This document shows positions 26,837 to 56,642 of a DNA stretch of 64,000 nt, piece by piece; the stretch's first letter is position 1, and every line of letters starts with the position of its first letter. This DNA is from Candidatus Saccharimonadia bacterium (GTDB taxonomy: Bacteria > Patescibacteriota > Saccharimonadia > UBA4664): NCBI GenBank assembly GCA_036488585.1, contig DASXHH010000024.1, forward strand, positions 85 through 64,084. Direction: 5' to 3'. Under the pieces are notes generated by a model, which was not told the DNA's origin, searched no databases, and was given only the letters and a program-made list of their open reading frames with translations. The position numbers and the translations under genes are program-made.

Positions 26837-26956
26837 GGAGGGGATGCAAAACAATAGTTAAGCCGACAAGTGCCAGCCGCCTGGAGATTTAATACGTGAT
26901 TCAATCTTCGGGTAGTTGTCTGCGCAAACGTGCACGGTGGGATTGGAATTGGGCGG

Positions 26957-26992
26957 AAAACAGCCGACTGCATAGCGCTAAATCGGCCGTTT
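26957..26992 (-). terminator. Putative terminator after the 27070..29016 gene: 10-bp stem AAACAGCCGA/TCGGCCGTTT (1 mismatch), large loop, short T-run on minus
   Basis: Inverted repeat seen directly. The U-tract is weak. Confidence 0.35.
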
Positions 26993-27069
26993 GAGGAGAA
27001 ATAACGCTTATGGACGCCTGGCTAGGGTTATTGGGACATTATCCGAGTACCGGTGACAGCAAAAACGCT

Positions 27070-29016
27070 CTAGAATAGCGGCGGTAGTTCTCCCAGGCCT
27101 TGGTACAAAGATTGGTCAGCACTGGAGTCGAATAATTTGGGCGGATTGAGATAGAGTTGGGGGTTCATGGCTACAACTTCGGCCTCTACGGAGCCTGAAA
27201 TAGCAGGCGGACCGAGGCGGCTGAGCAAGAGGTCGTGTGCCATTAGAAAACCCTTAACATTGAGAGTTGGTGTCACAATACCGCATGGTGCATCCGGAGT
27301 GGCAGCTTTGCCACAGGTATTAATTGTGCCGTCAGTGAACAGGTAGGCATCCACCTCGTTGACACTGCTGAGGATATCAAGATTTTGGTCAGCGATGATG
27401 CCGAGGGACGGGATATCGCTTCGGCCTGTGCCGGACCCAGGATTGAGCACGATATTACCGTTTATTACCACCCGGGAGGCATTTAATGCCACTAAAGTGA
27501 TCCTATTGGAAACAGTGCCGGAAATATCTAGCTCACCACTACCGTAGAAGTAGTAGAGGCCGGATTGGCCGTTAACACTCCAACCTGTGACTGCTCCAGC
27601 GGTTGGGATTGTCTTAATATCAGACCCAGAGTAGGCTCGGGCGAGAGAAAGTAGGTCTGGTCGACAGATTTGACCGTATCCCCCATTTGCACCAAGCGTT
27701 AACAGGTTGGTGCCGCCACTAGAGTTAAACCCGCCGATGAGACCGGTGGCCGACACAACATACTGGCCACTTGAAAGGGTGGTGCCCCTGATATTGCCGA
27801 TAACATTGCCGCCTCCAGACGCAAGACTGCACGCCAGCCCACTGCCGGCATGGATGTCGCTATTCTGCCCCGTCACTATCGGGACTACCACACCCATCAC
27901 ATTATTGGTGGTGCTGCCTGGTAGGACAAGCACGGGGCCTAAAGTGTTAGTAGCAACTCCGGTAGCGGTATTTACACCAATACCCAAACCTGTTGCCTTC
28001 ACGATGATTCTTAATGGCTGCGGCGGCCCGGTCGTCCAAGAGTCGAGTATTGCCGCGTTAGCCGGCAGGCTGAAGCTCCAAGTCAGGGTCTTAGTAGCCG
28101 GTGAGTACGTCGGCGTTGGCGCGCCCGGGGCTGGGCCTACGTAACTCATTTGCGCAGGCAAAGTATCAGTAATTGTAACACTGGTAAGCTGAATCGGTAT
28201 TGACTCCAGCCCCGTTATTGAGTAAACGATATCGTTTCCGACCGCCGTCACCCCAACCTGATCTGAACTCTTTGAAAGCTGCAGCTTAGGCGTCGGTGGC
28301 ATGGGCGGGGCAGTTACGTCCCCAGTCAAGTTGCCGCATTTATCCTTAAGAAGAAACTTGCCGCCAGGATAGTAGAATATCACCGACTTATCAACTTCCG
28401 GGTCTTCACTGTCCTTGGCAAACGCAACGTCAGGCTGGCATTGTTCCGGTGGCGCGCAGCTTAGTAAAATAACATTATTTGTAATAACGCCCCAGCCGTT
28501 CACATCTTGACCTGTAAAGTCCTGGAAAACGTTAAAATTCACAGAGTAACCCGGATATGCTCCACTATTATAGGCTGCTACCAGGGCCACCCAGTCGGCC
28601 CAATGGTCTTGGGCGTATTGAATGCCAGTTACATGTGAACCACCAAAGTCCGGGCCGTTTTTCCCGAGCATAATGTCGACAATAGACGCCACCCGGCCTT
28701 CATTCACTACCGACGTTGCATCAAACAACCTGGCATGGATATTAGAAACAAATGATGAATACGTGATATCTACAGTCGGCCAGTCCGGGGTCAAGCCCGC
28801 AAACTGGGTGGCGCCAACCGGCTCTAGCACATATGTCAGATCATTACCAATCGCCGGAGAGTTACGATTGTCAAAATAGCCGCAATTCAAGTCGCGCCCA
28901 TATGGACCAGATCCGGGGATGTTGCATGCTGCTGCTCGAGCTACCGGGCTAAACGTCACCATTGCTGCGACGCCCAATACGCATATCCCGATCGATGCTA
29001 AAAGCCATCGTTTCAT
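27070..29016 (-). CDS. Secreted 648-aa protein with signal peptide and a DUF11-like conserved-repeat beta domain (hypothetical surface protein)
   Basis: MKRWLLASIGICVLGVAAMVTFSPVARAAA signal peptide. A DUF11-like segment (VYSITGLESIPIQLTSVTITDTLPAQMSYVG). Confidence 0.5.
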   Translation of the reverse strand: MKRWLLASIGICVLGVAAMVTFSPVARAAACNIPGSGPYGRDLNCGYFDNRNSPAIGNDLTYVLEPVGATQFAGLTPDWPTVDITYSSFVSNIHARLFDATSVVNEGRVASIVDIMLGKNGPDFGGSHVTGIQYAQDHWADWVALVAAYNSGAYPGYSVNFNVFQDFTGQDVNGWGVITNNVILLSCAPPEQCQPDVAFAKDSEDPEVDKSVIFYYPGGKFLLKDKCGNLTGDVTAPPMPPTPKLQLSKSSDQVGVTAVGNDIVYSITGLESIPIQLTSVTITDTLPAQMSYVGPAPGAPTPTYSPATKTLTWSFSLPANAAILDSWTTGPPQPLRIIVKATGLGIGVNTATGVATNTLGPVLVLPGSTTNNVMGVVVPIVTGQNSDIHAGSGLACSLASGGGNVIGNIRGTTLSSGQYVVSATGLIGGFNSSGGTNLLTLGANGGYGQICRPDLLSLARAYSGSDIKTIPTAGAVTGWSVNGQSGLYYFYGSGELDISGTVSNRITLVALNASRVVINGNIVLNPGSGTGRSDIPSLGIIADQNLDILSSVNEVDAYLFTDGTINTCGKAATPDAPCGIVTPTLNVKGFLMAHDLLLSRLGPPAISGSVEAEVVAMNPQLYLNPPKLFDSSADQSLYQGLGELPPLF

Positions 29017-29534
29017 GGCTGCTTCTGCAATTCGCTAATGGCCTGCTCAAATATAGCTTTCTGGAAGGGCGCGCCCGGGAGGTTCTTGGGCATTAGGCGA
29101 ATAGCTTGCTGATAATACCCGATCGCCTGGCTCTTTTGCCCAAGCTGACTACTGGCCATGGCCGCCCCTGCCGCCTCACCAAACGTAATTCCAGTAATAG
29201 CTATGCTATTACGATACGAGTTCAAAGCTGCGCTGAAATTGCCAGCCGTCATATAATCCGCCGCTGCATTCTGCAGGGCTCGCACACGATATTGATTGCT
29301 ATGACTGCGTTGGGCCAGTGCAGTCCATTGATCGGCCGCCTTTGCAAATTTATTTGTTGATTCCAGCTGTTCAGTGATAGCCTGGGTCTCCGAAAAGTCC
29401 TGGCTGGCCAGGTGATCCTCGTAAATAATGTATCCTCTCCAGCCCCCAATAAGAAGAATCACCGCAAATAAAAAGCCACCGATAACTAAATATCGCTTGC
29501 GTCGTACGCGGCTAGCTTGTCCGACCTGTGGCAT
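29013..29534 (-). CDS. Single-pass membrane protein with TPR-like helical repeats (hypothetical); start overlaps the downstream secreted-protein gene by 4 nt
   Basis: N-terminal TM (YLVIGGFLFAVILLIGGW), then helical Ala/Gln-rich repeats. Confidence 0.4.
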   Translation of the reverse strand: MPQVGQASRVRRKRYLVIGGFLFAVILLIGGWRGYIIYEDHLASQDFSETQAITEQLESTNKFAKAADQWTALAQRSHSNQYRVRALQNAAADYMTAGNFSAALNSYRNSIAITGITFGEAAGAAMASSQLGQKSQAIGYYQQAIRLMPKNLPGAPFQKAIFEQAISELQKQP

Positions 29535-29611
29535 TGGAAACCCTATAGAATATATCGAAAATTATACTATTTATGTTCGTAAAATGCTTGTGATTCGACG
29601 GGCGAAAATGA

Positions 29612-29661
29612 ATAACCAAACAACCAAAAGACCCAGCCGATAGATGTGACGAGGGTCTTTT
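29612..29661 (-). terminator. Terminator after HAD gene 1: 9-bp perfect stem AAAAGACCC/GGGTCTTTT followed by a T-rich run on minus
   Basis: Seen directly. Downstream of the stop at 29756. Confidence 0.4.
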
Positions 29662-29755
29662 GGAGCTTAAAATGCGACCGTTAATCGAATCCTAGATCGG
29701 GAATTAGAGAAGGTTGGCGTACAGGCCATATGAAAGTTATTTACTGAGGAGCTGG

Positions 29756-30388
29756 TTACTTTTCGGGGAGTAAGCTTAATAACTGAGAGAAATCCTCAAA
29801 GGAATAGTCGGCTTTCTCGGAATGACCCCAAACCATGACAGCTATGAGCCCGAGCTGCTTAGCAGGGATTATATCCACATCCTCACGGTCGCCGACAAAG
29901 ACAAGGTTGGATGGATGAGCGTTACTACGAGTGACTACAAGTTCAAATCCTTGAGGATGGGGTTTTGGCTCTGAAATGTCATCGCTGGTCAAAATATGTG
30001 TAAACCAGGAAGGATTAATGTTCACGGTATGAAGCGTGCGCTCAACACGCTCCGGCTTGGAGTTACTGAGAAGACCAATCGGTAAAACCTCGCGAATAGT
30101 GTCAACCGTTTTGTATATGCGCTCATCAGGCCTGTAATATTGGGTCTCATCTAGCTGACCAAAATATGTTGGCCAGAAGTCCTTTGGCATTCCGAGTGCC
30201 TTAAAGACCGCCGACTTGCTCCCGTACTTTTTGTAGGCAGCGCGATAGTCATCCTTGACTTCATCACTTACATCTTGATGTGTGGCCTCAGCATAGGCTT
30301 CAAGACATAGAGCATCTTGGGCCGCAAGAAATTCGGGGGTTTGCAGAGTGAGGGTTCCGTTGAGATCAAACCACATTTCTTTAATCAT
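29756..30388 (-). CDS. HAD-superfamily hydrolase (phosphatase-like), paralog 1
   Basis: Motif I FDLNGTL (DxxGT) at the N-terminus. HAD core motifs downstream (VFVGDREDVDI). Confidence 0.7.
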   Translation of the reverse strand: MIKEMWFDLNGTLTLQTPEFLAAQDALCLEAYAEATHQDVSDEVKDDYRAAYKKYGSKSAVFKALGMPKDFWPTYFGQLDETQYYRPDERIYKTVDTIREVLPIGLLSNSKPERVERTLHTVNINPSWFTHILTSDDISEPKPHPQGFELVVTRSNAHPSNLVFVGDREDVDIIPAKQLGLIAVMVWGHSEKADYSFEDFSQLLSLLPEK

Positions 30389-30402
30389 GAGGTAATTATA
30401 TG

Positions 30403-30452
30403 CTTAAATACGCAAAATCACGCCATGTGGCGCGACTTGACAACGTTATAAA
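30403..30452 (-). promoter_or_regulatory. Conserved ~50-nt element (copy 1) immediately upstream of HAD gene 1. Contains the inverted repeat CGCCA-TG-TGGCG and TTGTCA/TTGACA hexamers. Putative promoter/operator.
   Basis: Near-identical to copy 2 at 31133..31180: AAATAC(GC)AAAATCACGCC[A/T]TGTGGCGCGACTTGACAACGT. Confidence 0.35.
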
Positions 30453-30533
30453 ACCATAGCAGGACGTTAATCGAATGATTGAGGACGATTCTGAAGCAAC
30501 TATTGATGAGGTTCGGAAATTATTGGCCGAGAG

Positions 30534-31097
30534 CTAGATGGTAACCCCTAATTGTGTAAGGTCCGTCTTCAGTTGTTCCGCCGATTTGAATTGAGTGGAA
30601 TTAATACCTATATTTGCAGCTGCTTCAACGTGACGGATATTGTCATCGATAAAAACGGATTCTGCAGGAGCTACGTGTAGTTTTTTGAGGGCTAGATGAA
30701 AAATCTCTGGGCTAGGCTTGACCATCCCCACTTCACTCGAAACCACAATAACGTCAAAATATTGTTCTAAATTATTTTCAGCAAGAATGCCTCGGATTAG
30801 TTTTGACGGTGCGTTAGAAATTAGCGCCATCTTATACTCTTTGCTGAGCTTAGAAACAATATTGACTACGGCGTTATCTACGGTAGCAGCGCCATCTACT
30901 TCTTCAAAGGTAACTTCCCGTCCCGTTAGTTCGCTTAATGTGGTTAAAAATTGTTCAGTCGTAATAGCGCCGATATCCTGCTGATGGGAAGCATCAAAAT
31001 ACGGTCCTTCGTGAGGAATTTTATTCGATGCCAGCCAGGCTTTGTAGGCATCGGTACGAATAACATCAAAGAAATCGAAAATGAGAGCTTTGATCAT
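30534..31097 (-). CDS. HAD-superfamily hydrolase, paralog 2
   Basis: MIKALIFDFFDVI N-terminal motif I, and a C-terminal VFIDDNIRHVEAA motif. Confidence 0.7.
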   Translation of the reverse strand: MIKALIFDFFDVIRTDAYKAWLASNKIPHEGPYFDASHQQDIGAITTEQFLTTLSELTGREVTFEEVDGAATVDNAVVNIVSKLSKEYKMALISNAPSKLIRGILAENNLEQYFDVIVVSSEVGMVKPSPEIFHLALKKLHVAPAESVFIDDNIRHVEAAANIGINSTQFKSAEQLKTDLTQLGVTI

Positions 31098-31132
31098 TGA
31101 GTAAGTATATCAAGAATGGGAGAAGACCATGC

Positions 31133-31180
31133 GAAATACAAAATCACGCCTTGTGGCGCGACTTGACAACGTATAATAAC
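31133..31180 (-). promoter_or_regulatory. Conserved ~50-nt element (copy 2) upstream of HAD gene 2 and directly downstream of tRNA-Trp
   Basis: Sequence conservation with copy 1 (see 30403..30452). Confidence 0.35.
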
Positions 31181-31181: not shown

Positions 31182-31257
31182 TGGCAGGGGTGGCAGGACT
31201 CGAACCCACGACACGCGGTTTTGGAGACCGCTGCTCTACCAACTGAGCTACACCCCT
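31182..31257 (-). tRNA. tRNA-Trp (anticodon CCA), CCA end encoded
   Basis: Manual fold: acceptor AGGGGTG/CACCCCT, D-arm GCTC/GAGC, anticodon stem GCGGT/ACCGC with loop CTCCAAA, T-loop TTCGAGT. Similar to E. coli tRNA-Trp. Confidence 0.9.
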
Positions 31258-31292
31258 ACGATGAAGGCGCCGGGAAGCGCCTTCTTATTTTG

Positions 31293-31454
31293 CTATTTAC
31301 TTTCTTTGAACTCAACTACTTTGCGTAGGAGCCGAGAGTACTTGCGGGCGACGATGCGCTCGGTAGTATTCTTGGGGTTCTTGGAGGTGGTATACACCGT
31401 GGTGGGGTCCTCCTCCGAACGCAGAGTGATGACTGGGCGGTTTTTCTTAGCCAT
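31293..31454 (-). CDS. rpmG: 50S ribosomal protein L33 (53 aa, non-Cys type); missed by the ORF track because it is under 60 aa
   Basis: Manual translation: MAKKNRPVITLRSEEDPTTVYTTSKNPKNTTERIVARKYSRLLRKVVEFKESK. Confidence 0.8.
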   Translation of the reverse strand: MAKKNRPVITLRSEEDPTTVYTTSKNPKNTTERIVARKYSRLLRKVVEFKESK

Positions 31455-31455
31455 T

Positions 31456-31653
31456 TTAGGTTACTTCTCCTTCTTTGGGGGTGATGGCGCTAGCGATCAA
31501 ATAAATGAAGACTCCGGGAAGGACGGTGGTCATGACGGTGACGGTGAGCACAATCAGACGGACCACGGTGACGTCCACTTCGATGTAGTCGGCGATGCCG
31601 GCACAGAGCCCCGAGATTTTTTTACCTTTTTCCTTGAGGACGAGGCGCTTCAT
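31456..31653 (-). CDS. PspC-domain small membrane protein (65 aa)
   Basis: MKRLVLKEKGKKISGLCAGIADYIEVDVTVVRLIV matches the PspC N-terminal motif plus one TM. The ORF-track extension upstream runs into tRNA-Thr and is not coding. Confidence 0.55.
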   Translation of the reverse strand: MKRLVLKEKGKKISGLCAGIADYIEVDVTVVRLIVLTVTVMTTVLPGVFIYLIASAITPKEGEVT

Positions 31654-31680
31654 TGGGGATAAATCCTTTAATTCTTTAAA

Positions 31681-31755
31681 TGGAGCCCAAGGTGGGGATT
31701 GAACCCACGACCCCTTCCTTACCATGGAAGTGCTCTGCCACTGAGCTACTTGGGC
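31681..31755 (-). tRNA. tRNA-Thr (anticodon GGT), CCA encoded
   Basis: Manual fold: GCCCAAG acceptor, GCTC/GAGC D-arm, anticodon loop ATGGTAA, T-arm GTGGG/CCCAC with loop TTCAATC. Confidence 0.9.
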
Positions 31756-32020
31756 ATGTGCAACTGTCAAACCATAGCACAAATCGCTTGATACGGCAAC
31801 CCATTGAGGACGGGTGACTCGGGTCTCTCGCTAGTTCAAAGCCAGCCCAATTTTTGAGCATAACCGGGTTGAGCCTCAGGTATAAATTTGGTAAAATTTA
31901 AACGTAAGTAGTTTGTGAGGAACAGGTCTGAACACCCGGCGTTTTATACGTATAGGGATCTCGTCAAGAAAACTGCTTACTGCCCTGGCCCTCGCGGCGA
32001 CTGGGCTAGTTTGGGTTGGA

Positions 32021-35000
32021 GTGCTAGTTGGGACTGCCCAGCCTGCTCAGGCCGCGGCCGGCATCAACCAACAGATCAACTTCCAGGGTCGGCTGCTGAC
32101 CGCTAGCGGAGCGGTGGTGGCGGATGGCACTTACAACATGGAGTTCCAAATCTGGCAGGACGGCAATGGCTGCGTTACCGGCTGTACCAGTGCAAATGCC
32201 AACACCAGTAACGGTGGTACCCTGAAGTGGACTGAGGATTGGATCTATGGCACCGGCTCACCTGACAACCGGGTGACCGTTAAGAACGGTTACTATTCAG
32301 TGTCTCTGGGCTCAATCACCTCATTGTCGAGCGTTGACTTCAACCAGAACACCCTGTGGCTATCCATGAACGTTGGTGACACCTCAAACCAGGCCTCCTT
32401 CGCTACTTCCGGTGGTTATCTCATTCCGTTTAAGCGCCTAGCGAGTGCGGTGTACGCTTTGCAGGCGGCTAATTCCAGTGCCCTTGGTAACGTTGCGGCC
32501 GCTAACTATGTGCAATTTGGCACCGGTACCCTCCAGGCTGACAATTCCACCAACTCCAGCATCTATTTCAATAAGACCAACACTGGGAATCTGCTGCAAC
32601 TACAGACCGGCGGCACAAATGCCTTTGTGCTAGATAACTTGGGCAACCTACAATTTGGCAACAACTCAGACAAGACGATCTCGGTGGCCACCGCCAGCTC
32701 GGCCAACGGTAATAGCCTAACGGTGGTGGCTGGTTCGGGCAACGGGACTAGTAAGAACGGCGGGAACCTGGTGTTGGAGGCTGGAGCGGCGACCAGTGGT
32801 GGCACCGGGGGTAGCATTATCGTCAAACCCCTTACCGACTCCACTGCGGCCTTCCAGATCAAAAATGCTGCCGGTAACACTTTCGTCAGCGCCGATTCGA
32901 CGATCAGCAAGCTCACCGTCACGAGCGCCGGCGCGCCGGCCGTCACGGGCTCAGAACTCATAACCACCACTGCCTTCAATAACGCTGCCTGGACATCCGC
33001 CGGCTGGACCACGACCTCTACCACCGCCGCCCATAACACCGGCAACACTTCGCCCCTGTCCACCGGCCAGTTCAGTGCCGTTTCGGGGACTACCTACCAA
33101 GTCACCTTTACCGTCACTGGTAGCCCTACTGCCGGCCAAACCATTACCCCCTGTATCGGCACCACCTGTGGCCAGGCCGTAGCGGGTAACACCACCGGCC
33201 AGGTCGAGCTCATCACGGCCGGGAGCACGCTCACCCCGGCCCTCCAATTCGAGCCCACCACCTCAACCTGGAATGGCACCATCTCCGCCGTCTCGGTCAA
33301 GGCCATCACCGCCGCCTCCGCCGGCCTTTCCGTCACTGATGCTACCTCATCCTTCCCGATTGAGCTACGCAGTAGCGGCGCCTTCGGCAATACCTTTATC
33401 GGCACCTCCTCTGGCTCCTTCGACACCACCGGCTCCCGCAACACCGCCGAGGGCTGGGGCGCCCTGGGCTCCGTCACCACCGGCACCGAAAACACCGCTT
33501 CCGGTTATAACACCCTCCAGGACAACACCACCGGTGGCCAAAACGCGGCCTTTGGTCGCTGGGGTCTACAACTCAACACCACCGGCTCGGGCAATACGGC
33601 GCTTGGCTACGCGGCCGGGCTCAACAACGTCACCGGATCCAACAACACCTTCCTTGGCGCTGGGGCCAGCGAGGACTCATCGGCGGTAGGAGCCCTCCAA
33701 AACGCCACCGCCATTGGAGTGAACTCATTGGTCGCTCAATCCGATAGCCTAGTCCTTGGCTGCATCAACGGTCAAAACAGCTGTACCGCCACCACCAAGG
33801 TCGGTATCGGCACCTCGGCCCCAACCGCCACTCTGGATGTACGCGGCGATACCCAGATCACCAGCGCTTCAACCACTTCCTTCCAGGTGCAGGGTAGCTC
33901 CAGCAGCGCTGTGTTTACAGTGGATACCAGCTCCAACTCCGGCCAGGGCCAGATAATCCTCGGCAAGCCTTCCACTAACAAGGGCGTGATCGTCTTTGAT
34001 GATTCGGTCTCGGCTAATACCGCTTCGCTGAGCGTCGCTGGCAACTCTAATGGTGGCGGTGCTTTTACCTTGCCCAACCTGTCCGGCGCCCAGACCATCT
34101 GCACAAGCAACGCTACCAGTTGTAGCGGTACCTATCTGACGGCTGGTAACTATCTGCAGCAGGCGCCGTCTAGTAGTGCGACCAACACCATCTCGCCGAC
34201 CGGCGCTTCCACCACCGGCCTCATAGTGCAGCAAACCTCCACTTCCGGCGGAGCACCCGACATCTTTGATGTTTACGGCACCTCGAGTGCTACCAAGTTT
34301 ATCCAGGTAACTGGAACTGCATCCAACGCCGGTGCAATTAATATTACGTCCCAAGGGGCCGGCAACGCCGTAACCATTCAAGGTGCGGGCAACGTTAACC
34401 TCGTCACTAATAGTGCCAGCACTGGTACGATCGTTAAGAACTCCACCAACTCCACTTCCGGCTTCCAGGTTCAGCGATCTACCGGTGACACTCTGCTGGG
34501 AGTTGATACCGTTAACAGCAACGTGAACATTCAGGGTGCCAACCTGGTGACGCCTTATGGTGGTCTCGGGATCTACCAGAACTTGCTCAAGTATACCGAG
34601 CAGTTTGATCAGGCGGGTACTTGGGCTGTTTCCGGAACTTTGACAGTGGCGGCAAATTCGACTTCAGCGCCGAATAACCAGACGACTGCGGATACACTTC
34701 CGGCCACTAGTTCCGGTGCTAGCGTCGCTCAGACCTCAACAACCGCCGTGGCCAACACAAACTTTACCTTTAGCGTCTGGATGAGAACCTCCAGTGGTAC
34801 GCAAAACGCGAACCTGCGGATTGATGGCTCCGGTGGTGGCACCGGCACATCGAGCGCGGCGACAGTGACCGCCAACTGGCAGCGCTTTAGTGTGACGCAA
34901 AACCTTAACCCGGGTTCGGGCTTCAGTGGCAATGCCAAGGTGCTGATTTTCCCCGGTACCACCGCTGGCACTGGAACAGTTATAGCCTGGGGGGCTCAGC

Positions 35001-38000
35001 TTGAGCAGGCCAGCACACCTTCAAACTATGCGGCCATGGGCAATGGTGTTTCTACCGCCAGCCAGGTGTTTGGCCAAGTGGTCGACGGCTCGGCATTGTT
35101 CCGCACCTCAAGTGATAACTCGGCTGCCTTCCAGATCCAAAATTCCGCGGGTACAAATCTGTTTTCGGCCAATACGAGCACCGGTCAGCTGGTGGTTGGT
35201 AGTTCCAATAGCCTTAACGGTACGCTGGTGTTTGCCGATAGCGGCGATTCGCAGACCATTACAGTGGGCACCGATAGCAGTGGATCGCTCAATGTGGCGG
35301 TGCCAGGCGGCGGCGGTACCAACCTGCCTCAACTCGATTATGCCGCGCACTTTGCGCAGACAGCTGCAAACACGCCAGCTCTTCCATGGAGCAACACCTA
35401 CAACGTCAATGGTGCCAATAATCCTAACGGTAATACCGATACATATTTGCTCGTGGGGATTATTGACCATAATAGTTGCACAAATACAATCTCTTCCGTG
35501 CAATTCAACTCTACCTCCATGACGCTGATAGGATCCAATACCAAGGGTACCGGGAGCGCTACCTGTTACTACTTGTACGGTTTGGCTGGTGCTACTGGGT
35601 CCCATTCATTGACTATTTCTGGTGCTGGGACCGCTGAAATATATTCAGTCAATGTCACGAGTTGGTATAACGTCAACCAAACGACCCCGTACGGTAGCTT
35701 CCAAACTGCTGCCGGTGGTTTTTCACAGGCGCCAGCGATTAACTATAATTGGCCCGCTGGGCGCGTAGTGGTGGATAACATGAGTGCGTATTTGTATATA
35801 ACTAACGTTTCGACGTCGAGTCTTTGCCAGATGGGACCGGTGGCGCCGCAAAAAGTTGCAGCTGTCGGTGGCGCTACCTCCGAGGTATGTGTTAACGGTA
35901 CTGGTGGAGATATTTTTAGCACTGACGGGGCAAGCTACGCTGATAGCAACGGTAGGAATATGCAAATGGCCTGGACATCGGCCGGTGCTATTGCGACGGG
36001 GTTTTCAGACCCCAGTAATAGTAATGACACTGTGGGTCAGTGGGTTACAGGTGCGGTTGACCTGATAGGTGATACTGGCGGTACGGCAACATTTGGCAAT
36101 AGCAATACCGGTGGTACGTCAGATGGTGGCAACGATGTGAAACAATGGGAGTGTAGCAGCTATGTCTCAACCGCTACTGGTACCGTTTCGTCAATAACCT
36201 CGCAATTTGCCAGCATAGATACGGCTGCCACGGGGGCTGATGGCGTTAACCCGGCGAAAGATGCCGAAGCAGCCGTCTATAGCAACTTTGCTGGGAATAA
36301 CAATATCGGCGGTGAGCCAGGACGTCCGTTGGCGCAAAGCTCTATTGTGCAGTTGGTGGCAGGGGCGAATACATTCAATATGACCAGCAGTACGCAGGTA
36401 TACGCCGGTACACAGTACTGGTTGTGCATAACTAGTAACACAAACTCGGCTACAAGCAACACACTCTTGGAGGATGCGAACCAAAATGTGCCCTATGAAT
36501 ACTTTAAAGCTAGCCCAAGTTCATGGAGTTTTGGTAGCTGGCCGAGCAATATGTCGTCAACTACAAATATAGGTACTTTTGTAGGAGAAGGTTTAGAAAT
36601 TTATGCAACCGTAACTAGGAATACTCCTTCCGGAACGGTAATGAATCTATCTAACTCCGGCCAACTTACGCTCCAAAATGCTAGCGATAGCACAAGCGCC
36701 TTCCAGGTTCAAAACGCCAGCGGTAACGCCCTGATTAACGTCGATACCCAGGACAACCAGGTAAACATTAACGGTGCGCTGTCTGGCTCGGTCGTGCGTT
36801 ATGCTGATTACGGCACTGGAAGTGGTACATTTAATATTCCGATAGTTTCAGCCGGGGTGGGATACAATCTTTCGAGCAATTTCTACACCTCTTCGGGAGG
36901 TGGAACCTACATGAGCCAGTTCAATATTACGGGGTTGCCACAGGTCGAGGGGACGATTGTCTACATAATGACCACTGCTAATAAGCAGACGACCGCTACA
37001 AGCGGCAATGATGAGGTTCAGGTTGAGATAAACGGTACGCTAATAAGCAGTTTGACAGCGTTGGCTGCGTCCGGCACCGGTACTGGTACGACCCATGAGG
37101 ACTACACTCTGATGTATAGCGGGGGGGTTTGGCACATCGTGGGTTATGGACCGGATGCGACCAACGGTACCACCGGTGGCACAAATACAAACGGAACTTT
37201 TGACGGTGCTGACTATGCTGAATACATTGACTACAGCGGTGACATTGCGCCGCAGCCAGGCGACGTACTGACTGTGGGCGGCAACTTTACAACGGTGAAG
37301 GACTCAACGGGAGCATACGACTCACATCTCATGGGCGTAGTGTCTACTGCCCCGTACACGGTGGGTGGTAAGGACGATGGACATGCGGTGGTCTTGGCGC
37401 TAACTGGACGTGTGCCTGTTAAGGTATCGGCAGAAAACGGAGCGATTTCGCCCGGGGACCCACTCACCTCTTCGTCTCTTCCGGGGGTGGCTATGAAGGC
37501 GACCAAGCCGGGTAATATTATTGGAACGGCGCTTGAGGCCTACGACGGCACGGAAACGAGTAACGAAATTAATGTTCAGCTGCATGTGGGCTACGATGAC
37601 CCAACAGCCGGTCAATTGGGTGACCAGATCCAAGGCGATATGCAGCTATCAGGTAACCTTAATATAGGCGGCAGCGCTACGATCGGGGGCGATTTAACAG
37701 TAGCTGGGACTACGACCACTAAAACGCTTGTGGTGACGGGCGACGCGAATGTGAAAGGGGGTTTGACGGTCGGCGGTACAACTAACCTCGCCGATATCAG
37801 TGTAAACGGTCATATTGTTACCGGCGGCAGCACGCCGACGATTAGTGCGCTCACGGCGGCTGGTTTGCAGGGCGCTTCAGCGCAGGTGGATGGCAATGAT
37901 ACGTCAGGTACAGTCACCATTACTACTGGGAGCGCCGGGGCGAGCGGTATGACGCCGGGCGATTTGGCGCAACTTACGTTTAATAAGGCATTTGGCGCCG

Positions 38001-38152
38001 CGCCGCGGGCGGTAGTATCGGCCAACAATGCGGCTAGTGCGCAGCTGGGTGTGTTCACTACCAGTATTACCCCACAATCGTTCAACTTGTCGGTGGCCGG
38101 TAAGCCCGAGCCGAATACTACTTACGTCTTTACTTATATCGTGCTGCAGTAG
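32021..38152 (+). CDS. Giant (2043 aa) secreted Gly/Thr/Ser/Asn/Ala-rich repeat protein, predicted beta-helix/fibre-like adhesin or surface protein; true start probably upstream at a non-canonical codon
   Basis: Single 6.1-kb ORF. Recurrent ~30-aa motif [ST]xAFQ[IV][QK]N[AS]xG(N/T)x(L/F)... at least six times. In-frame upstream codons encode SSRKLLTALALAATGLVWVGVLVGTAQPAQA|AAG (signal peptide) but contain no ATG/GTG/TTG. Confidence 0.8.
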   Translation: MLVGTAQPAQAAAGINQQINFQGRLLTASGAVVADGTYNMEFQIWQDGNGCVTGCTSANANTSNGGTLKWTEDWIYGTGSPDNRVTVKNGYYSVSLGSITSLSSVDFNQNTLWLSMNVGDTSNQASFATSGGYLIPFKRLASAVYALQAANSSALGNVAAANYVQFGTGTLQADNSTNSSIYFNKTNTGNLLQLQTGGTNAFVLDNLGNLQFGNNSDKTISVATASSANGNSLTVVAGSGNGTSKNGGNLVLEAGAATSGGTGGSIIVKPLTDSTAAFQIKNAAGNTFVSADSTISKLTVTSAGAPAVTGSELITTTAFNNAAWTSAGWTTTSTTAAHNTGNTSPLSTGQFSAVSGTTYQVTFTVTGSPTAGQTITPCIGTTCGQAVAGNTTGQVELITAGSTLTPALQFEPTTSTWNGTISAVSVKAITAASAGLSVTDATSSFPIELRSSGAFGNTFIGTSSGSFDTTGSRNTAEGWGALGSVTTGTENTASGYNTLQDNTTGGQNAAFGRWGLQLNTTGSGNTALGYAAGLNNVTGSNNTFLGAGASEDSSAVGALQNATAIGVNSLVAQSDSLVLGCINGQNSCTATTKVGIGTSAPTATLDVRGDTQITSASTTSFQVQGSSSSAVFTVDTSSNSGQGQIILGKPSTNKGVIVFDDSVSANTASLSVAGNSNGGGAFTLPNLSGAQTICTSNATSCSGTYLTAGNYLQQAPSSSATNTISPTGASTTGLIVQQTSTSGGAPDIFDVYGTSSATKFIQVTGTASNAGAINITSQGAGNAVTIQGAGNVNLVTNSASTGTIVKNSTNSTSGFQVQRSTGDTLLGVDTVNSNVNIQGANLVTPYGGLGIYQNLLKYTEQFDQAGTWAVSGTLTVAANSTSAPNNQTTADTLPATSSGASVAQTSTTAVANTNFTFSVWMRTSSGTQNANLRIDGSGGGTGTSSAATVTANWQRFSVTQNLNPGSGFSGNAKVLIFPGTTAGTGTVIAWGAQLEQASTPSNYAAMGNGVSTASQVFGQVVDGSALFRTSSDNSAAFQIQNSAGTNLFSANTSTGQLVVGSSNSLNGTLVFADSGDSQTITVGTDSSGSLNVAVPGGGGTNLPQLDYAAHFAQTAANTPALPWSNTYNVNGANNPNGNTDTYLLVGIIDHNSCTNTISSVQFNSTSMTLIGSNTKGTGSATCYYLYGLAGATGSHSLTISGAGTAEIYSVNVTSWYNVNQTTPYGSFQTAAGGFSQAPAINYNWPAGRVVVDNMSAYLYITNVSTSSLCQMGPVAPQKVAAVGGATSEVCVNGTGGDIFSTDGASYADSNGRNMQMAWTSAGAIATGFSDPSNSNDTVGQWVTGAVDLIGDTGGTATFGNSNTGGTSDGGNDVKQWECSSYVSTATGTVSSITSQFASIDTAATGADGVNPAKDAEAAVYSNFAGNNNIGGEPGRPLAQSSIVQLVAGANTFNMTSSTQVYAGTQYWLCITSNTNSATSNTLLEDANQNVPYEYFKASPSSWSFGSWPSNMSSTTNIGTFVGEGLEIYATVTRNTPSGTVMNLSNSGQLTLQNASDSTSAFQVQNASGNALINVDTQDNQVNINGALSGSVVRYADYGTGSGTFNIPIVSAGVGYNLSSNFYTSSGGGTYMSQFNITGLPQVEGTIVYIMTTANKQTTATSGNDEVQVEINGTLISSLTALAASGTGTGTTHEDYTLMYSGGVWHIVGYGPDATNGTTGGTNTNGTFDGADYAEYIDYSGDIAPQPGDVLTVGGNFTTVKDSTGAYDSHLMGVVSTAPYTVGGKDDGHAVVLALTGRVPVKVSAENGAISPGDPLTSSSLPGVAMKATKPGNIIGTALEAYDGTETSNEINVQLHVGYDDPTAGQLGDQIQGDMQLSGNLNIGGSATIGGDLTVAGTTTTKTLVVTGDANVKGGLTVGGTTNLADISVNGHIVTGGSTPTISALTAAGLQGASAQVDGNDTSGTVTITTGSAGASGMTPGDLAQLTFNKAFGAAPRAVVSANNAASAQLGVFTTSITPQSFNLSVAGKPEPNTTYVFTYIVLQ

Positions 38153-38186
38153 ATGCTCTGTACGTCATAAATGTATGTCGCAAAAT

Positions 38187-38213
38187 AAAAAGAGCCGTTA
38201 CCGACTCTTTTTG
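38187..38213 (+). terminator. Rho-independent terminator of the giant gene (stem AAGAGCCG/CGACTCTT with one mismatch, loop TTAC, then TTTTT)
   Basis: 35 nt downstream of the stop at 38152. Confidence 0.55.
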
Positions 38214-38224
38214 AATAAGGACTA

Positions 38225-38310
38225 TGGTGCCGGGTGAGAGATTCGAACTCCCGAAGACTAATGTCAGCTGATTTACAGTCAGCCCTCGTTGGCCACTTGA
38301 GTAACCCGGC
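38225..38310 (-). tRNA. tRNA-Tyr (anticodon GTA), type II with long variable arm, CCA encoded
   Basis: Manual fold: acceptor GCCGGGT/ACCCGGC, anticodon loop CTGTAAA, long variable arm, T-loop TTCGAAT. Confidence 0.9.
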
Positions 38311-38320
38311 GCGATTTCTC

Positions 38321-38396
38321 TGGAGCCGACGACAGGAATCGAACCCGCAACCTACAGTTTACAAAACTGTTGCTCTGCCAGTTGAGCTACGTCGGC
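38321..38396 (-). tRNA. tRNA-Thr (anticodon TGT), CCA encoded
   Basis: Manual fold: acceptor GCCGACG/CGTCGGC, anticodon stem ACAGT/ACTGT with loop TTTGTAA, T-loop TTCGATT. Confidence 0.9.
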
Positions 38397-38447
38397 CTAT
38401 CGTCTGGTTCTAGCGTTTTCAACCACGTAATAGTAACAGATTTCGGG

Positions 38448-56222: not shown

Positions 56223-56549
56223 CTAGCGCTTTTTTCGAGAAAGAACCCGGATTTCCTGTCCGAGCCCACGATTCATGAGAATTAATCCGGTAATAGAGAG
56301 AGTGGCGGCGATGAGGTAAGAGATGAGCCACCAACGATTTTGGACGAAGATGCGCCGCTCGACTACGGCTGGGGTAAACGCAAAGATAGTCGAAATATTG
56401 CCGAGCCACCAACCCTTTACGAGTTGCTCCGGTTTTTTGACACGACGATGACGCGCCAAGCGATGGACTTTTAGGTATTTGAGCGATACCTGGAGGTTCA
56501 GGAAAATGATTATTGGCAGCGGCAGGTTAGCAAGAATAAATACCAGCAT
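56223..56549 (-). CDS. Hypothetical small membrane protein
   Basis: ORF with hydrophobic helices only. The true start is uncertain. Confidence 0.3.
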   Translation of the reverse strand: MLVFILANLPLPIIIFLNLQVSLKYLKVHRLARHRRVKKPEQLVKGWWLGNISTIFAFTPAVVERRIFVQNRWWLISYLIAATLSITGLILMNRGLGQEIRVLSRKKR

Positions 56550-56642
56550 ACGTAAGTATTATAACTTGGAATTTCGCTCGTAATGCCTTGACATTTATTA
56601 GTTCTTATGGTAATATGTGTCAATTCCTAAGAGGAAGACGTT

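What the first reader, a model, noticed from the sequence alone, without database searches (positions are those of the whole stretch)
31182..38400. Giant 2043-aa repeat surface protein inserted, in opposite orientation, into a conserved tRNA / rpmG cluster
On the minus strand the order is tRNA-Thr(TGT), tRNA-Tyr(GTA), then a 6.5-kb block carrying a single plus-strand gene, then tRNA-Thr(GGT), pspC-like, rpmG, tRNA-Trp(CCA). In many bacteria Thr-Tyr-(Gly)-Thr tRNAs plus tuf/rpmG/tRNA-Trp/secE/nusG form one contiguous conserved array. Here the array is split exactly by the giant gene, which has its own promoter-like AT-rich region and a clean terminator. The protein is G/T/S/N/A-rich with at least six copies of a ~30-aa motif ([ST]xAFQ[IV]QN[AS]xGxx[LF]...[VL][DN]T...) and a C-terminal ~300-aa region (GDVLTVGG ... 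LMGVVSTAPYTVGG ... VVLALTGRVPVKV ... ISPGDPLTSSSLPGVAMKA) that looks like a separate folded domain. This resembles phage tail-fibre or beta-helical adhesins and the giant attachment proteins reported in small-genome symbiotic bacteria. Integration at a tRNA site suggests acquisition or hypervariability.
Basis: partly seen in the sequence, partly recalled or inferred. Interest (0 to 1): 0.75.

Follow-up and report, generated by a model that had tools for sequence, protein, structure and literature searches.

The report
Giant prey-recognition-type fibre protein in Saccharibacteria
The 2,043-codon gene is real and encodes a secreted, mosaic fibre protein of a soil Saccharibacteria (CPR) bacterium; its conserved N-terminal domain is distantly related to that of the "mosaic adhesive trimer" fibres that the predator Bdellovibrio uses to recognise prey, which makes it a candidate host-recognition adhesin, and it sits in a long-standing variable slot between tRNA genes, not in a fresh insertion.

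Summary
A single + strand ORF (32021-38152) fills the gap between tRNA-Thr(GGT) and tRNA-Tyr, opposite to all its neighbours. Translation probably starts at CTG 31928, which would add a complete signal peptide.

The protein is not just a low-complexity repeat protein. After the signal peptide comes a ~150-aa beta-sandwich that matches NCBIfam Bdello_MAT_N (Bdellovibrio mosaic-adhesive-trimer fibres) below threshold; 18 of 23 family members match it. A stalk of swappable cassettes follows, separated by five AFQVQN connectors. One cassette is a bona fide GTA head-spike-fibre domain. The protein ends in a ~315-aa C-terminal module: a beta-tulip like the phi29 gp12 autochaperone, a beta-helix-like spacer and a lectin-like sandwich. 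That module has 12,815 cluster representatives and also occurs in phage fibre proteins.

Synteny: two close relatives carry the start of the same gene at the same place. In five more distant relatives the tRNA order is kept but the gap holds unrelated cargo, and the array is never contiguous. There is no integrase and no att repeats, and overall codon usage falls within the range of neighbouring genes.

Best reading: a surface-displayed trimeric adhesin for host recognition, a new CPR variant of the MAT fibre superfamily. The function is inferred, not shown.

The parts
31182..31257 (-). tRNA-Trp(CCA), low-coordinate end of the conserved tRNA/rpmG backbone
   Evidence: ARAGORN; Rfam tRNA 66 bits
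31293..31454 (-). rpmG (ribosomal protein L33)
   Evidence: Pfam Ribosomal_L33, E 2.5e-12; 98% and 92% aa identity in the orthologous loci L078 and L079
31456..31662 (-). PspC-domain small membrane protein
   Evidence: Pfam PspC, E 2e-16; found next to rpmG in relatives L019, L020, L024, L025, L078 and L079; no PspC gene was called in L022
31681..31755 (-). tRNA-Thr(GGT), left border of the variable slot
   Evidence: ARAGORN; same tRNA at the same relative position in L019, L020, L022, L024, L025, L078 and L079
31869..31897 (+). Promoter-like site TTGAGC-17-TAAAAT (with TG) of the giant gene
   Evidence: Consensus scan; similar hexamers can be read by eye in L078, L079 and L032
31917..31930 (+). 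Shine-Dalgarno-like GAGGAA followed 5 nt later by CTG 31928, the probable true start codon
   Evidence: An in-frame TGA at 31916-18 closes the frame upstream. GAGGA-N5-6-CTG-AAC/AAT is conserved in L078 and L079, and the codon is TTG in L032
31928..32053 (+). Signal peptide (M)NTRRFIRIGISSRKLLTALALAATGLVWVGVLVGTAQPAQA|AAG (42 aa if CTG is the start)
   Evidence: Translation. Homologues carry about 25-50 residues ahead of the conserved GINQQINFQGRL. The peptide is conserved in L032 and L078
32021..38152 (+). Giant ORF as called (2043 aa; 2074 aa from CTG 31928); NCBI VGH44_06500, Candidatus Saccharimonadia bacterium
32042..32515 (+). MAT-type N-terminal beta-rich domain (aa ~8-165), the family-defining module
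   Evidence: NCBIfam NF053851 Bdello_MAT_N, aa 10-165 against profile 8-159/162, E 6.8e-5, below the cut-off. 18 of 23 family members match, best E 5.6e-9. AF2 beta-sandwich at aa ~19-140, pLDDT 80-90. Present in 116 of the 120 best hits
32840..32920 (+). Connector motif 1 (STAAFQIKNAAGNTFVSADST); further copies at 33869-33955, 34451-34540, 35117-35200 and 36689-36775, and a degenerate one near 34253
   Evidence: Regex search. Three short strands with pLDDT 84-89 in the N-terminal model. The cassettes between connectors recur at other positions in other family proteins
33422..33679 (+). Five tandem 17-aa (51-nt) NTAxGxxAL..NTTG units, weakly YadA-head-like, inside cassette A (aa 300-610)
   Evidence: 51-nt periodic direct repeats; weak Pfam YadA_head, E 0.61. 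Cassette A is 64% identical to P0004, whose N-domain is only 28% identical
33800..33835 (+). MAT/S74-type 'capping loop' motif VGIGTSAPTATL (aa 594-605)
   Evidence: Regex against the consensus and the example AVGIGTTNPSGILH given in PMC10769870
34577..35029 (+). GTA head-spike-fibre domain (aa 853-1003, ends ...WGAQLEQ)
   Evidence: NCBIfam NF048003 GTA_spike_fiber, 68.2 bits against a cut-off of 36, E 1.3e-18
35318..36070 (+). Cassette D (aa ~1100-1350), with no homologue among the 119 best hits; lies in the GC-poorer part of the gene
   Evidence: Coverage map; GC3 0.52 here against 0.69-0.74 at the 5' end
37211..37222 (+). D1731-Y-A-E1734, aligned with the phi29 gp12 motif W-S-D-F-A-E-Y; candidate autocleavage site A1730|D1731
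   Evidence: hhalign; family HMM against phi29 ORFs gives gp12 at E 1.3e-5. D, A and E are conserved in about 80% of 265 family modules. The position of the gp12 scissile bond (Ser691|Asp692) is from my own recollection of Xiang et al. 2009
37211..37600 (+). Beta-tulip domain (aa ~1731-1860)
   Evidence: AF2 pLDDT about 90. Foldseek PDB top hit is 3suc, premature phi29 gp12 (prob 1.0), followed by phage capsid decoration proteins. BFVD 'Preneck appendage protein barrel', E 3.9e-8. PA5oct gp359 scores E 1.4e-26 with the family HMM
37601..37840 (+). Gly/Thr-rich beta-helix-like spacer (aa ~1861-1940)
   Evidence: High pLDDT over most of the segment (about 88-95) with no intramolecular strands. 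Weak profile match to the tail-fibre protein 9cuy_g. JGI names homologues 'bactofilin family'
37841..38149 (+). C-terminal beta-sandwich (aa ~1941-2043), lectin-like
   Evidence: pLDDT 95-97 over most of the domain. Foldseek matches to Helix pomatia agglutinin, discoidin II and R-pyocin fibre tips, prob 0.75-0.84. Pfam H_lectin is below threshold (E 0.056; 20 bits in homologue P0261)
38186..38213 (+). Hairpin with flanking A/T runs, a plausible bidirectional terminator
   Evidence: RNAfold. The relative's contig L108 aligns up to 38182 and ends there
38225..38396 (-). tRNA-Tyr(GTA) and tRNA-Thr(TGT), right border of the slot
   Evidence: ARAGORN; same order next to TPR and holB in all relatives

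Best explanation
The gene encodes a Sec-exported giant fibre protein of the mosaic-adhesive-trimer (MAT) kind. Such proteins have one conserved end for retention on the producer cell and a mosaic, exchangeable remainder for binding other cells.

Shown here:
- a signal peptide followed directly by a MAT-type N-terminal beta domain;
- a stalk made of cassettes that recur in different orders in paralogues, including a GTA head-spike-fibre domain;
- a widely distributed ~315-aa C-terminal module whose first domain is a beta-tulip homologous to the autochaperone region of the phi29 appendage protein gp12.

Inferred:
- Three chains trimerise, nucleated by the C-terminal beta-tulip module.
- The fibre stays attached to the Saccharimonadia cell through the N-domain.
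- The distal cassettes and/or the lectin-like tip bind surface glycans of the host bacterium on which this epibiont lives.
- The C-terminal module may cut itself off at A1730|D1731 after assembly (about even odds).

The gene occupies an old variable slot between tRNA-Tyr and tRNA-Thr(GGT). Close relatives carry the start of the same gene there. It diversifies by cassette exchange, not by tRNA-directed integration.
For: N-domain:
- NF053851 Bdello_MAT_N covers almost the whole profile.
- It is the only NCBIfam family hit, matched by 18 of 23 family N-termini, best E 5.6e-9.
- The domain is a beta-sandwich with no significant PDB match, as the MAT paper reports for its N-domain.
- It follows the signal peptide directly.

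Mosaicism:
- 116 of 120 hits share the N-domain, whereas middle segments are shared with 0-17 of them.
- Cassettes aa 264-608 and 777-1062 sit at other positions in other proteins.
- P0004 is 64% identical in cassette A but 28% identical in the N-domain.
- L032 is 87% identical in the first 149 aa and unrelated after aa ~384.
- GC3 drops from 0.69-0.74 to about 0.52 inside the gene.

Binding domains:
- GTA_spike_fiber scores above the cut-off.
- A capping-loop motif is present.
- The tip has a lectin-like fold.

C-terminal module. Three family members end in tandem tulips, as gp12 does (gp12 tandem tulips per bioRxiv 10.1101/216911).

Paralogues: a second copy in this genome (P0019) and three in tandem in L017.

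Synteny.

Biology of the kind: MAT fibres are surface displayed and one binds prey glycans (PMC10769870). Very large surface proteins of Patescibacteria are already suspected host-recognition factors (PMC13059738).
Against: - The Bdello_MAT_N score (22.7 bits) is far below the curated cut-off (60), so the query is outside that Bdellovibrio subfamily and the homology is remote.
- No trimer could be modelled; both AF2 models are monomers.
- Surface retention, glycan binding and autocleavage are all untested.
- The organism is an uncultured MAG, so its epibiotic lifestyle is itself inferred from its class.
- No S74 chaperone, the hallmark of 13 of 21 Bdellovibrio MATs, is present.
- The whole protein has no Pfam, PHROG or PDB sequence hit.
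- About 700 aa (aa 620-800, 1100-1350 and others) remain uncharacterised.
- The conserved C-terminal lectin-like domain might instead be a retained tip, which would argue against cleavage.
Confidence: 0.6

Rival explanations
1. Recently acquired island. The giant gene was inserted by a mobile element or horizontal transfer into a previously contiguous tRNA/rpmG array, using a tRNA as the integration site.
For: - The gene is flanked by tRNAs and lies opposite to its neighbours.
- The slot's content differs among more distant relatives.
- The 3' two-thirds of the gene has lower GC3 than the 5' third.
- Contigs of relatives break at the gene.
Against: - No integrase or other mobility gene lies nearby.
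- No att-like direct repeats or tRNA fragment duplications were found.
- The whole-gene RSCU distance (0.128) is within the range of native genes (0.105-0.215), and GC is 0.553 against 0.555-0.592.
- The start of the same gene is at the same place in L078 and L079.
- The array is not contiguous in any of the five other relatives.
- Only 2 of 82 family genes in metagenome loci lie within 1 kb of a tRNA, and those two are the orthologues.
Confidence: 0.1
2. Phage-derived gene: a prophage remnant, tail fibre or tailocin fibre, not a cellular adhesin.
For: - The C-terminal beta-tulip module has relatives in phage virion proteins: PA5oct gp359 beside tail-fibre genes, phi29 gp12 and BFVD entries.
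- A GTA head-spike-fibre domain is present.
Against: - There are no other phage genes in the slot or its flanks.
- The N-domain is absent from 50,697 GenBank phage records and from IMG/VR.
- The gene has a signal peptide, its own promoter-like site and a fixed chromosomal position between housekeeping genes, with its 5' end seen at that position in three related genomes.
- Family members occur as chromosomal paralogues.
Confidence: 0.05
3. An envelope or nutritional protein, not a host-recognition adhesin: an S-layer-like structural protein, or a stalked polysaccharide-binding or degrading protein used for feeding or biofilm attachment.
For: - It is secreted, very large and rich in T/S/G/N.
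- Some homologues carry Beta_helix/NosD, CBM_4_9, LVIVD or Kelch domains that could be enzymatic or sugar-binding.
- No host is known for this MAG.
Against: - The family is multi-copy, mosaic and divergent even between close relatives. That pattern is typical of recognition proteins, not of a uniform S-layer.
- No catalytic domain is detected in this protein.
- The characterised proteins with the nearest N-domain model are prey-handling fibres.
Confidence: 0.15
4. The C-terminal ~315 aa is a permanent receptor-binding tip (beta-tulip collar plus lectin head), not a self-cleaving assembly chaperone.
For: - The terminal beta-sandwich resembles H-type lectins and the lectin-fold receptor-binding tips of R-pyocin fibres.
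- It is modelled with very high confidence.
- NS74 MAT tips fold independently and are retained.
Against: - The module is 38-57% identical across phyla while the upstream parts are unrelated. That is unusual for a specificity determinant and typical of chaperone caps.
- A conserved D-x-A-E motif sits exactly at the module's N-boundary and aligns with the gp12 S-D-F-A-E-Y motif, which I recall as the cleavage site.
Confidence: 0.45

Closest known systems
Bdellovibrio bacteriovorus MAT (mosaic adhesive trimer) chimeric fibre proteins (Caulton et al. 2024, PMC10769870; NCBIfam NF053851 Bdello_MAT_N)
   Same: - A signal peptide is followed directly by a conserved beta-rich N-domain that has no PDB homologue.
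- The protein is long and fibre-like.
- It is mosaic: a constant N-end with a variable remainder.
- Several paralogues occur per genome.
- A capping-loop motif VGxGxxxPxxxL is present.
- Phage-fibre-type C-terminal assembly modules are used.
- The producer lives at the expense of other bacteria.
   Different: - The N-domain match is remote (22.7 bits against a cut-off of 60).
- The organism is a CPR/Saccharimonadia bacterium, a group absent from the paper's list of MAT-bearing lineages.
- The protein is twice the typical MAT size; family members reach 3,600-4,300 aa.
- There is no S74 chaperone. The C-terminus instead carries a gp12 (Peptidase G2)-like beta-tulip module.
- The stalk carries AFQVQN connectors and a GTA head-spike domain.
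Bacillus phage phi29 pre-neck appendage protein gp12, C-terminal autochaperone D4 (Pfam PF11962 Peptidase_G2; PDB 3suc)
   Same: - A beta-tulip fold lies at the C-terminus of a fibre.
- The motif A|D-Y-A-E-Y aligns with gp12 S-D-F-A-E-Y, followed by GVVS aligning with GVIS.
- Some family members have tandem tulips, as gp12 does.
   Different: - The query has one tulip, followed by a beta-helix-like spacer and a lectin-like sandwich.
- Pfam PF11962 does not reach threshold on the query.
- Cleavage is untested.
- The rest of the protein is unrelated to gp12; no pectate-lyase-like helix was detected.
Rhodobacter capsulatus GTA head spike fibre (NCBIfam NF048003 GTA_spike_fiber)
   Same: aa 853-1003 matches the domain model above its curated cut-off.
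   Different: Here it is one internal cassette of a cellular giant protein, not part of a GTA or phage head spike. Its ligand is unknown. The capsule-binding role of the GTA spikes is from my own knowledge of Westbye et al. 2016 and was not checked here.
Very large surface proteins of Patescibacteria/CPR epibionts (for example Absconditicoccaceae, PMC13059738; essential glycan-binding envelope proteins of Southlakia epibionticum, PMC10633639)
   Same: Giant, signal-peptide-bearing, adhesion-domain-rich proteins in reduced-genome epibionts, proposed to mediate host recognition.
   Different: Those reports list fibronectin III, VCBS, concanavalin A, integrin and dockerin domains. None of the passages retrieved mentions a MAT-type N-domain or a gp12-like C-terminal module.

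Membership tests
MAT (mosaic adhesive trimer) fibre superfamily | Signal peptide immediately followed by a conserved beta-rich N-terminal domain of ~130 aa | tested here: met
   Signal peptide from CTG 31928. Beta-sandwich at aa ~19-140. Bdello_MAT_N alignment covers profile positions 8-159 of 162. 18 of 23 family members hit it, best E 5.6e-9.
MAT, Bdellovibrio subfamily (NCBIfam NF053851) | Score at or above the curated cut-off (60 bits) | tested here: not met
   22.7 bits. The protein is therefore not a member of the Bdellovibrio subfamily and can only be placed in the wider superfamily.
MAT fibre superfamily | Mosaic build: conserved N-end, diversified distal part, several paralogues per genome | tested here: met
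   Paralogue P0019 is in the same assembly. Three tandem genes lie in L017.
MAT fibre superfamily | Intertwined homotrimer along the whole fibre | not testable with these tools
   Only monomer AF2 was available. Indirect hints: beta-tulip domains are described as trimerisation modules, and the beta-helix-like segment lacks intramolecular strands.
MAT fibre superfamily | C-terminal S74 chaperone-protease with SDxxxK (13 of 21 Bdellovibrio MATs), or else a non-S74 tip | tested here: not met
   No SDxxxK motif and no Peptidase_S74 hit. By the paper's scheme it is an 'NS74' type member.
MAT fibre superfamily | Display on the producer's surface and binding of prey or host epitopes | not testable with these tools
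   Needs localisation and binding experiments.
Peptidase G2 / phi29 gp12 intramolecular chaperone (PF11962) | Pfam model at gathering threshold | tested here: not met
   No hit on the query. Scores of 18-22 bits against a cut-off of 25 in 3 of 10 homologues. A PF11962 hit is on record for P0396 and P0430.
Peptidase G2 / phi29 gp12 intramolecular chaperone | Beta-tulip fold at the fibre's C-terminus, matching gp12 D4 | tested here: met
   Foldseek top PDB hit is 3suc, prob 1.00, E 3.8e-3. BFVD 'Preneck appendage protein barrel', E 3.9e-8, 32% identity. Family HMM hits gp12 at E 1.3e-5 among the phi29 and PA5oct-locus ORFs.
Peptidase G2 / phi29 gp12 intramolecular chaperone | Conserved motif at the scissile bond (gp12 S691|D692-F-A-E-Y) | tested here: met
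   The query's A1730|D1731-Y-A-E-Y aligns with it. D, A and E are each present in about 80% of 265 modules. The position of the gp12 bond is recalled from the literature, not verified here.
Peptidase G2 / phi29 gp12 intramolecular chaperone | Autoproteolysis and release after trimerisation | not testable with these tools
   Needs expression of the C-terminal fragment and mutants.
GTA head spike fibre domain (NF048003) | Score at or above the curated cut-off (36 bits) | tested here: met
   68.2 bits, E 1.3e-18, aa 853-1003.
H-type lectin (PF09458) | Pfam model at threshold, or a clear fold match | tested here: inconclusive
   14 bits, E 0.056 on the query. 20.1 bits against 24 in P0261. Foldseek to HPA and discoidin II gives prob 0.75-0.82 at E 0.26-0.33.
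tRNA-targeted integrative element / genomic island | Integrase, att direct repeats (a duplicated tRNA 3' end) and deviant composition | tested here: not met
   No integrase among the neighbours. No flanking direct repeats of 14 nt or more relating the two borders. Whole-gene codon usage is within the range of native genes.
Diversity-generating retroelement target | Template/variable repeat pair and a nearby reverse transcriptase | tested here: not met
   blastn of the gene against the whole 64-kb window finds no second copy of any segment.

The most novel reading that the evidence does not exclude
Saccharimonadia, which are epibiotic CPR bacteria, have independently expanded the same chimeric-fibre superfamily that Bdellovibrio uses for prey recognition. 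They have built it up to 2,000-4,000 aa, capped it with a phi29-gp12-type self-cleaving beta-tulip chaperone instead of S74, and diversify it by cassette exchange at conserved AFQVQN joints. On this reading the fibres act like phage receptor-binding proteins and set the host range of the epibiont. They would be the missing host-specificity determinants of Saccharibacteria, shared as a 'predation toolkit' across unrelated bacterial predators and parasites.
Probability: 0.35. Interest if true: 0.8.

Novelty: new variant of a known kind. Interest (0 to 1): 0.6.

Why it matters
How ultrasmall CPR epibionts identify and bind their host bacteria is stated to be largely unknown (abstract of PMC11623550). 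So far, type IV pili and a few glycan-binding envelope proteins have been implicated (PMC10633639).

This family gives a concrete set of candidates:
- 420 proteins at E <= 1e-3 and 383 related metagenome stretches;
- it is secreted, mosaic and multi-copy;
- its N-domain is remotely related to the only experimentally characterised prey-recognition fibres of a bacterial predator.

If the link holds, host range in Saccharibacteria becomes testable by swapping or deleting cassettes, and by glycan arrays with defined domains. MAT fibres would then be a toolkit shared between phylogenetically unrelated bacteria that live on other bacteria.

The C-terminal module (12,815 cluster representatives, no Pfam model reaching threshold on it here) also deserves a family definition of its own.

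Tried and rejected
- Whole-protein Pfam, PHROGs and PDB sequence searches found nothing. Segment-wise Pfam gave only weak hints. NCBIfam on segments was what worked.
- The one genome-contig scan, using the neighbouring holB as anchor, returned only Fictibacillus loci and was wasted.
- The exact-match look-up of rpmG returned only the same genome (L016, 99.995% identical).
- Synteny was recovered instead through holB homologues and through the metagenome scan with the N-domain alignment.
- Foldseek of the N-terminal model against the PDB gave only generic Ig-like or MG-like sandwiches, none with E < 0.07.
- The afdb50 fold library was not available.
- Profile search of the C-terminal alignment against PDB sequences gave only a low-complexity beta-helix match to a tail fibre.
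- Tandem Repeats Finder found no real tandem array.
- Diversity-generating retroelement idea: no template/variable repeat in the window.
- att-site idea: no flanking repeats.
- Cargo genes of the slot in relatives are not related to the giant protein. Two of them share a weak metallophosphoesterase-like protein.
- The small beta-tulip membrane protein found beside other family members has no copy in this window.
- Literature searches for giant Saccharibacteria surface proteins found no description of this family. No paper in the library holds both 'mosaic adhesive trimer' and Saccharibacteria or Patescibacteria.

Full report
**1. The observation**

The ORF 32021..38152 on the + strand (2043 codons) is real. 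It lies between tRNA-Thr(GGT) at 31681-31755 and tRNA-Tyr(GTA) at 38225-38310. tRNA-Trp, rpmG and a PspC-domain gene lie on one side, and tRNA-Thr(TGT), a TPR protein and holB on the other, all on the - strand. The exact protein is on record as a hypothetical protein of a Candidatus Saccharimonadia MAG, VGH44_06500, on a 64,108-bp contig. A JGI metagenome contig is 99.995% identical over 20 kb.

There are five clear copies of the motif and one degenerate copy, and they are dispersed, not tandem. Fourteen cysteines form seven closely spaced pairs, as expected for an extracellular protein.

**2. Start codon and expression signals**

The called GTG start cuts a signal peptide in half. The in-frame upstream sequence reads (L)NTRRFIRIGISSRKLLTALALAATGLVWVGVLVGTAQPAQA|AAGINQQ. 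It is closed by a TGA at 31916-18.

In the related loci L078 and L079 the same arrangement is conserved: TGA, GAGGA, a 5-6 nt spacer, then CTG-AAC/AAT. In L032 the codon is TTG, and there the frame stays open upstream to an ATG 13 codons earlier. CTG 31928 is therefore the likely start, giving 2074 aa and a 42-aa signal peptide.

A TTGAGC-17-TAAAAT promoter-like site lies at 31869-31897, and similar hexamers can be read at the corresponding place in the other three loci. A hairpin with a T-run follows the stop codon.

**3. What the protein is**

Whole-protein searches of Pfam, PHROGs and PDB sequences found nothing. The large protein database returned 420 relatives, mostly 1,100-3,200-aa proteins. 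Every one that carries a taxon name is from Saccharimonadia or Saccharibacteria.

The shared part is the N-terminal ~250 aa, present in 116 of the 120 best hits. The C-terminal ~320 aa is shared with 16-18 of them, and large middle stretches with none.

NCBIfam gave the key results:
- aa 10-165 match NF053851 Bdello_MAT_N over profile positions 8-159 of 162. E is 6.8e-5 and the score is 22.7 bits, below the 60-bit cut-off.
- aa 853-1003 match NF048003 GTA_spike_fiber at 68.2 bits, above its 36-bit cut-off.

Scanning 23 family N-termini one by one, 18 hit Bdello_MAT_N (best E 5.6e-9) and no other family appeared.

The AF2 model of aa 1-330 (mean pLDDT 70) shows a beta-sandwich at aa ~19-140 with pLDDT 80-90 and no significant PDB match. 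The MAT paper reports the same for its N-domain (PMC10769870). That paper defines MAT proteins as follows:
- trimeric, surface-displayed, mosaic fibres;
- a conserved ~130-aa beta-rich domain directly after the signal peptide;
- diverse adhesive tips;
- often an S74 chaperone-protease;
- a capping-loop motif (V-G-G/N-pi-x-x-P-x-x-x-L).

The query has VGIGTSAPTATL at aa 594-605. This follows the same pattern as the Bdellovibrio example AVGIGTTNPSGILH. It has no SDxxxK motif.

**4. Cassette structure**

The AFQVQN-type connectors (aa 274, 617, 811, 1033, 1557) bracket blocks that recur at other positions in other family members. aa 264-608 is found at 2290-2569 of P0005, 814-1244 of P0103 and 959-1323 of P0021. 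aa 777-1062 occurs twice in P0028.

P0004 is 64% identical in aa 300-609 but only 28% identical in the N-domain. L032 is 87% identical over the first 149 aa, with a similar upstream region (-35/-10-like hexamers and the SD box), but is unrelated beyond aa ~384 and sits in another genomic context.

Within the gene, GC3 falls from 0.69-0.74 in the 5' third to about 0.52 in 35.1-37.1 kb. The latter region includes a stretch (aa ~1100-1350) with no homologue. I read this as module exchange. That is an inference.

**5. The C-terminal module**

A search of 1.84 billion cluster representatives with aa 1720-2043 found 12,815 proteins at E <= 1e-3. Among the 150 best listed, the match mostly lies at or near the C-terminus of proteins of 240-4,333 aa. 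Named examples come from Saccharimonadales, other CPR groups, Chloroflexi, Acidobacteria and Acetothermia.

The AF2 model is good (pLDDT 87.7) and has three parts:
- a beta-rich domain (aa ~1731-1860);
- a segment without intramolecular strands, mostly at high confidence (aa ~1861-1940);
- a beta-sandwich (aa ~1941-2043).

Foldseek against the PDB puts premature phi29 gp12 (3suc) first, followed by phage capsid decoration proteins (Pam3, Sf11, TW1, T1). Further down come H-type lectins and R-pyocin fibre tips. According to bioRxiv 10.1101/216911, the gp12 D4 autochaperone and lambda gpD-type decoration proteins share the trimerising beta-tulip fold; the capsid proteins hit here are of that functional class.

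Against predicted viral structures there are 35 hits at E <= 1e-3. They include 'Preneck appendage protein barrel' and tail or tail-fibre proteins, at about 30-39% identity among the best ones. tblastn against GenBank phages finds the domain near the C-terminus of a PA5oct virion protein encoded beside tail-fibre genes.

Profile comparisons align the family's [GA]-A-D-[LYF]-A-E-[WY] motif with gp12 W-S-D-F-A-E-Y. These were hhalign and an HMM I built from 265 family modules, run against phi29 ORFs (gp12 E 1.3e-5). I recall this gp12 sequence as the Ser691|Asp692 autocleavage site (Xiang et al. 2009; not verified here). In the query the equivalent is A1730|D1731-Y-A-E.

D, A and E are each conserved in about 80% of the modules. 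The distance from the motif to the C-terminus has a median of 318 aa. Three family members end in tandem tulips, as gp12 does.

I therefore regard homology to the gp12-type beta-tulip region as supported, and autocleavage as plausible but untested.

**6. Synteny**

Five relatives with holB 46-58% identical (L019, L020, L022, L024, L025) keep this backbone: r-protein operon, TrkA, RluD, holB, TPR, tRNA-Thr(TGT), tRNA-Tyr, tRNA-Thr(GGT), (PspC) rpmG, tRNA-Trp. No PspC gene was called in L022. In each of them the Tyr to Thr(GGT) gap holds 2.2-3.7 kb of different genes, none related to the giant protein. In some, other gaps of the array also hold cargo.

Among 82 family genes in 80 metagenome loci, only two lie within 1 kb of a tRNA. 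Those two (L078, L079) are orthologous loci. They show tRNA-Trp, rpmG (98% and 92% aa identity), PspC, tRNA-Thr(GGT) and then the start of the giant gene in the same orientation. DNA identity is 82% and 76%, and both contigs end inside the gene.

The other flank of an 80%-holB relative (L108) aligns at 81.6% and ends 41 bp past tRNA-Tyr. L109, from the same sample as L078, breaks off earlier, within the tRNA-Tyr region.

So the 5' end of the gene is present in this slot in close relatives, and the array was not contiguous in any relative seen. No integrase, att repeats, deviant whole-gene codon usage or DGR repeats were found.

**7. Mechanism proposed**

Shown:
- export signal;
- MAT-type N-domain;
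- mosaic cassettes;
- GTA-spike-fibre domain;
- gp12-like beta-tulip C-terminal module;
- paralogy (P0019 in the same assembly; three tandem genes in L017).

Inferred by analogy with MAT fibres and phage fibres:
- trimerisation nucleated from the C-terminus;
- retention on the cell through the N-domain;
- binding of host-cell glycans by distal cassettes or the tip;
- possible release of the C-terminal cap.

Very large surface proteins are already suspected host-recognition factors in other Patescibacteria (PMC13059738). Glycan-binding envelope proteins are essential for epibiotic growth of Southlakia (PMC10633639).

**8. Novelty**

The MAT paper's list of MAT-bearing lineages (Oligoflexia, Micavibrio, Bradymonadaceae, Myxococcales, the FCB group, Uabimicrobium, Omnitrophica) has no CPR member. 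No paper in the searchable library holds both 'mosaic adhesive trimer' and Saccharibacteria or Patescibacteria. That is absence within this library only.

I class the gene as a new variant of a known kind. It has a MAT-type fibre architecture in a CPR epibiont, is unusually large, and carries a G2-like C-terminal module instead of an S74 one.

The main weaknesses are the remoteness of the N-domain match, the lack of any trimer model, and the absence of experimental data.

Noticed in passing
window 31916-31930; L078 ~7560-7600; L079 ~1030-1050; L032 ~970-990: The giant gene probably starts at a CTG codon (31928) preceded by GAGGAA. The SD-spacer-CTG arrangement, with an in-frame TGA just upstream, is conserved in two orthologous loci. 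In L032 the codon is TTG and the frame stays open upstream to an ATG. The public annotation uses GTG 32021, which truncates the signal peptide.
   Followed up: partly
L036, L039, L041, L045, L046, L061, L062, L064, L069, L071, L073, L084, L085, L087, L093, L097, L100, L101 (e.g. L064 8814-9650, - strand): In 18 of 80 metagenome loci, a ~280-aa protein is encoded divergently, immediately upstream of an N-domain family gene (~671 aa in most complete cases). It has a signal peptide, a beta-tulip-like domain and two C-terminal transmembrane helices. This links the tulip module and the MAT-type N-domain family as separate neighbouring genes, and the small protein could be a membrane dock or a trans-acting chaperone. 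No copy exists in this window.
   Followed up: partly
L017 10001-24926: Three giant genes (1641, 1825 and >=1975 aa), each with the MAT-type N-domain, lie in tandem on a 303-kb contig. The family forms arrays in some genomes.
   Followed up: partly
L078 end (8143), L079 end (1496), L108 end (2137), L109 end (2008): Contigs from close relatives break at or near the giant gene: L078 and L079 end inside it, L108 ends 41 bp past tRNA-Tyr, and L109 ends within the tRNA-Tyr region. This would be expected if the gene is heterogeneous within populations, although low coverage could also explain it.
   Followed up: no
window 26815-31162: The block holding a 648-aa DUF11-like protein, a TPR protein and two HAD hydrolases (GC3 0.38-0.53, the lowest measured in the window) is not shared with the close relative L078, although both flanks are. 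It is a second variable patch, next to tRNA-Trp.
   Followed up: partly
L019 12949-14253 (-), L024 12916-15321 (-): In two more distant relatives the tRNA slot holds an opposite-strand gene with a weak metallophosphoesterase match. The two proteins share an N-terminal motif (MS.I.WTE....RLL.C.TD). This is recurrent but poorly conserved cargo of unknown role.
   Followed up: partly
window 35081-37120: Inside the giant gene, GC3 drops to about 0.52, against 0.69-0.74 in the first 2 kb. The low-GC3 part includes a stretch (aa ~1100-1350) with no homologue among the best hits.
   Followed up: partly
L027 (phi29) 6895-7737: The HMM built from the family's beta-tulip region also hits the phi29 head-fibre protein gp8.5 (E 3e-4), aligned to the second half of the tulip. 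A phi29 prohead chain also appeared among the Foldseek hits (6qvk_1e).
   Followed up: no
window 19566-22091 and upstream (L016 18673-20162): Ku and a full-length LigD (841 aa: LigD_N, ligase and primase-polymerase domains) are encoded here, so this reduced-genome CPR bacterium carries a non-homologous end-joining pair.
   Followed up: no
window 56223-63991: The usual tuf-rpsJ-rplC order is interrupted. tuf is at 63149-63991 (cut by the window end). The S10 domain occupies only residues 121-215 of the 216-aa ORF 61690-62340. Several ORFs without Pfam hits, and an MgsA/RarA-like AAA+ gene (57127-58341), lie between rpsJ and the start of the r-protein operon on the lower-coordinate side.
   Followed up: no
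window 32440: The only difference between this window and the JGI contig of the same population over 20,162 bp is A/G at 32440, a third codon position inside the giant gene.
   Followed up: no
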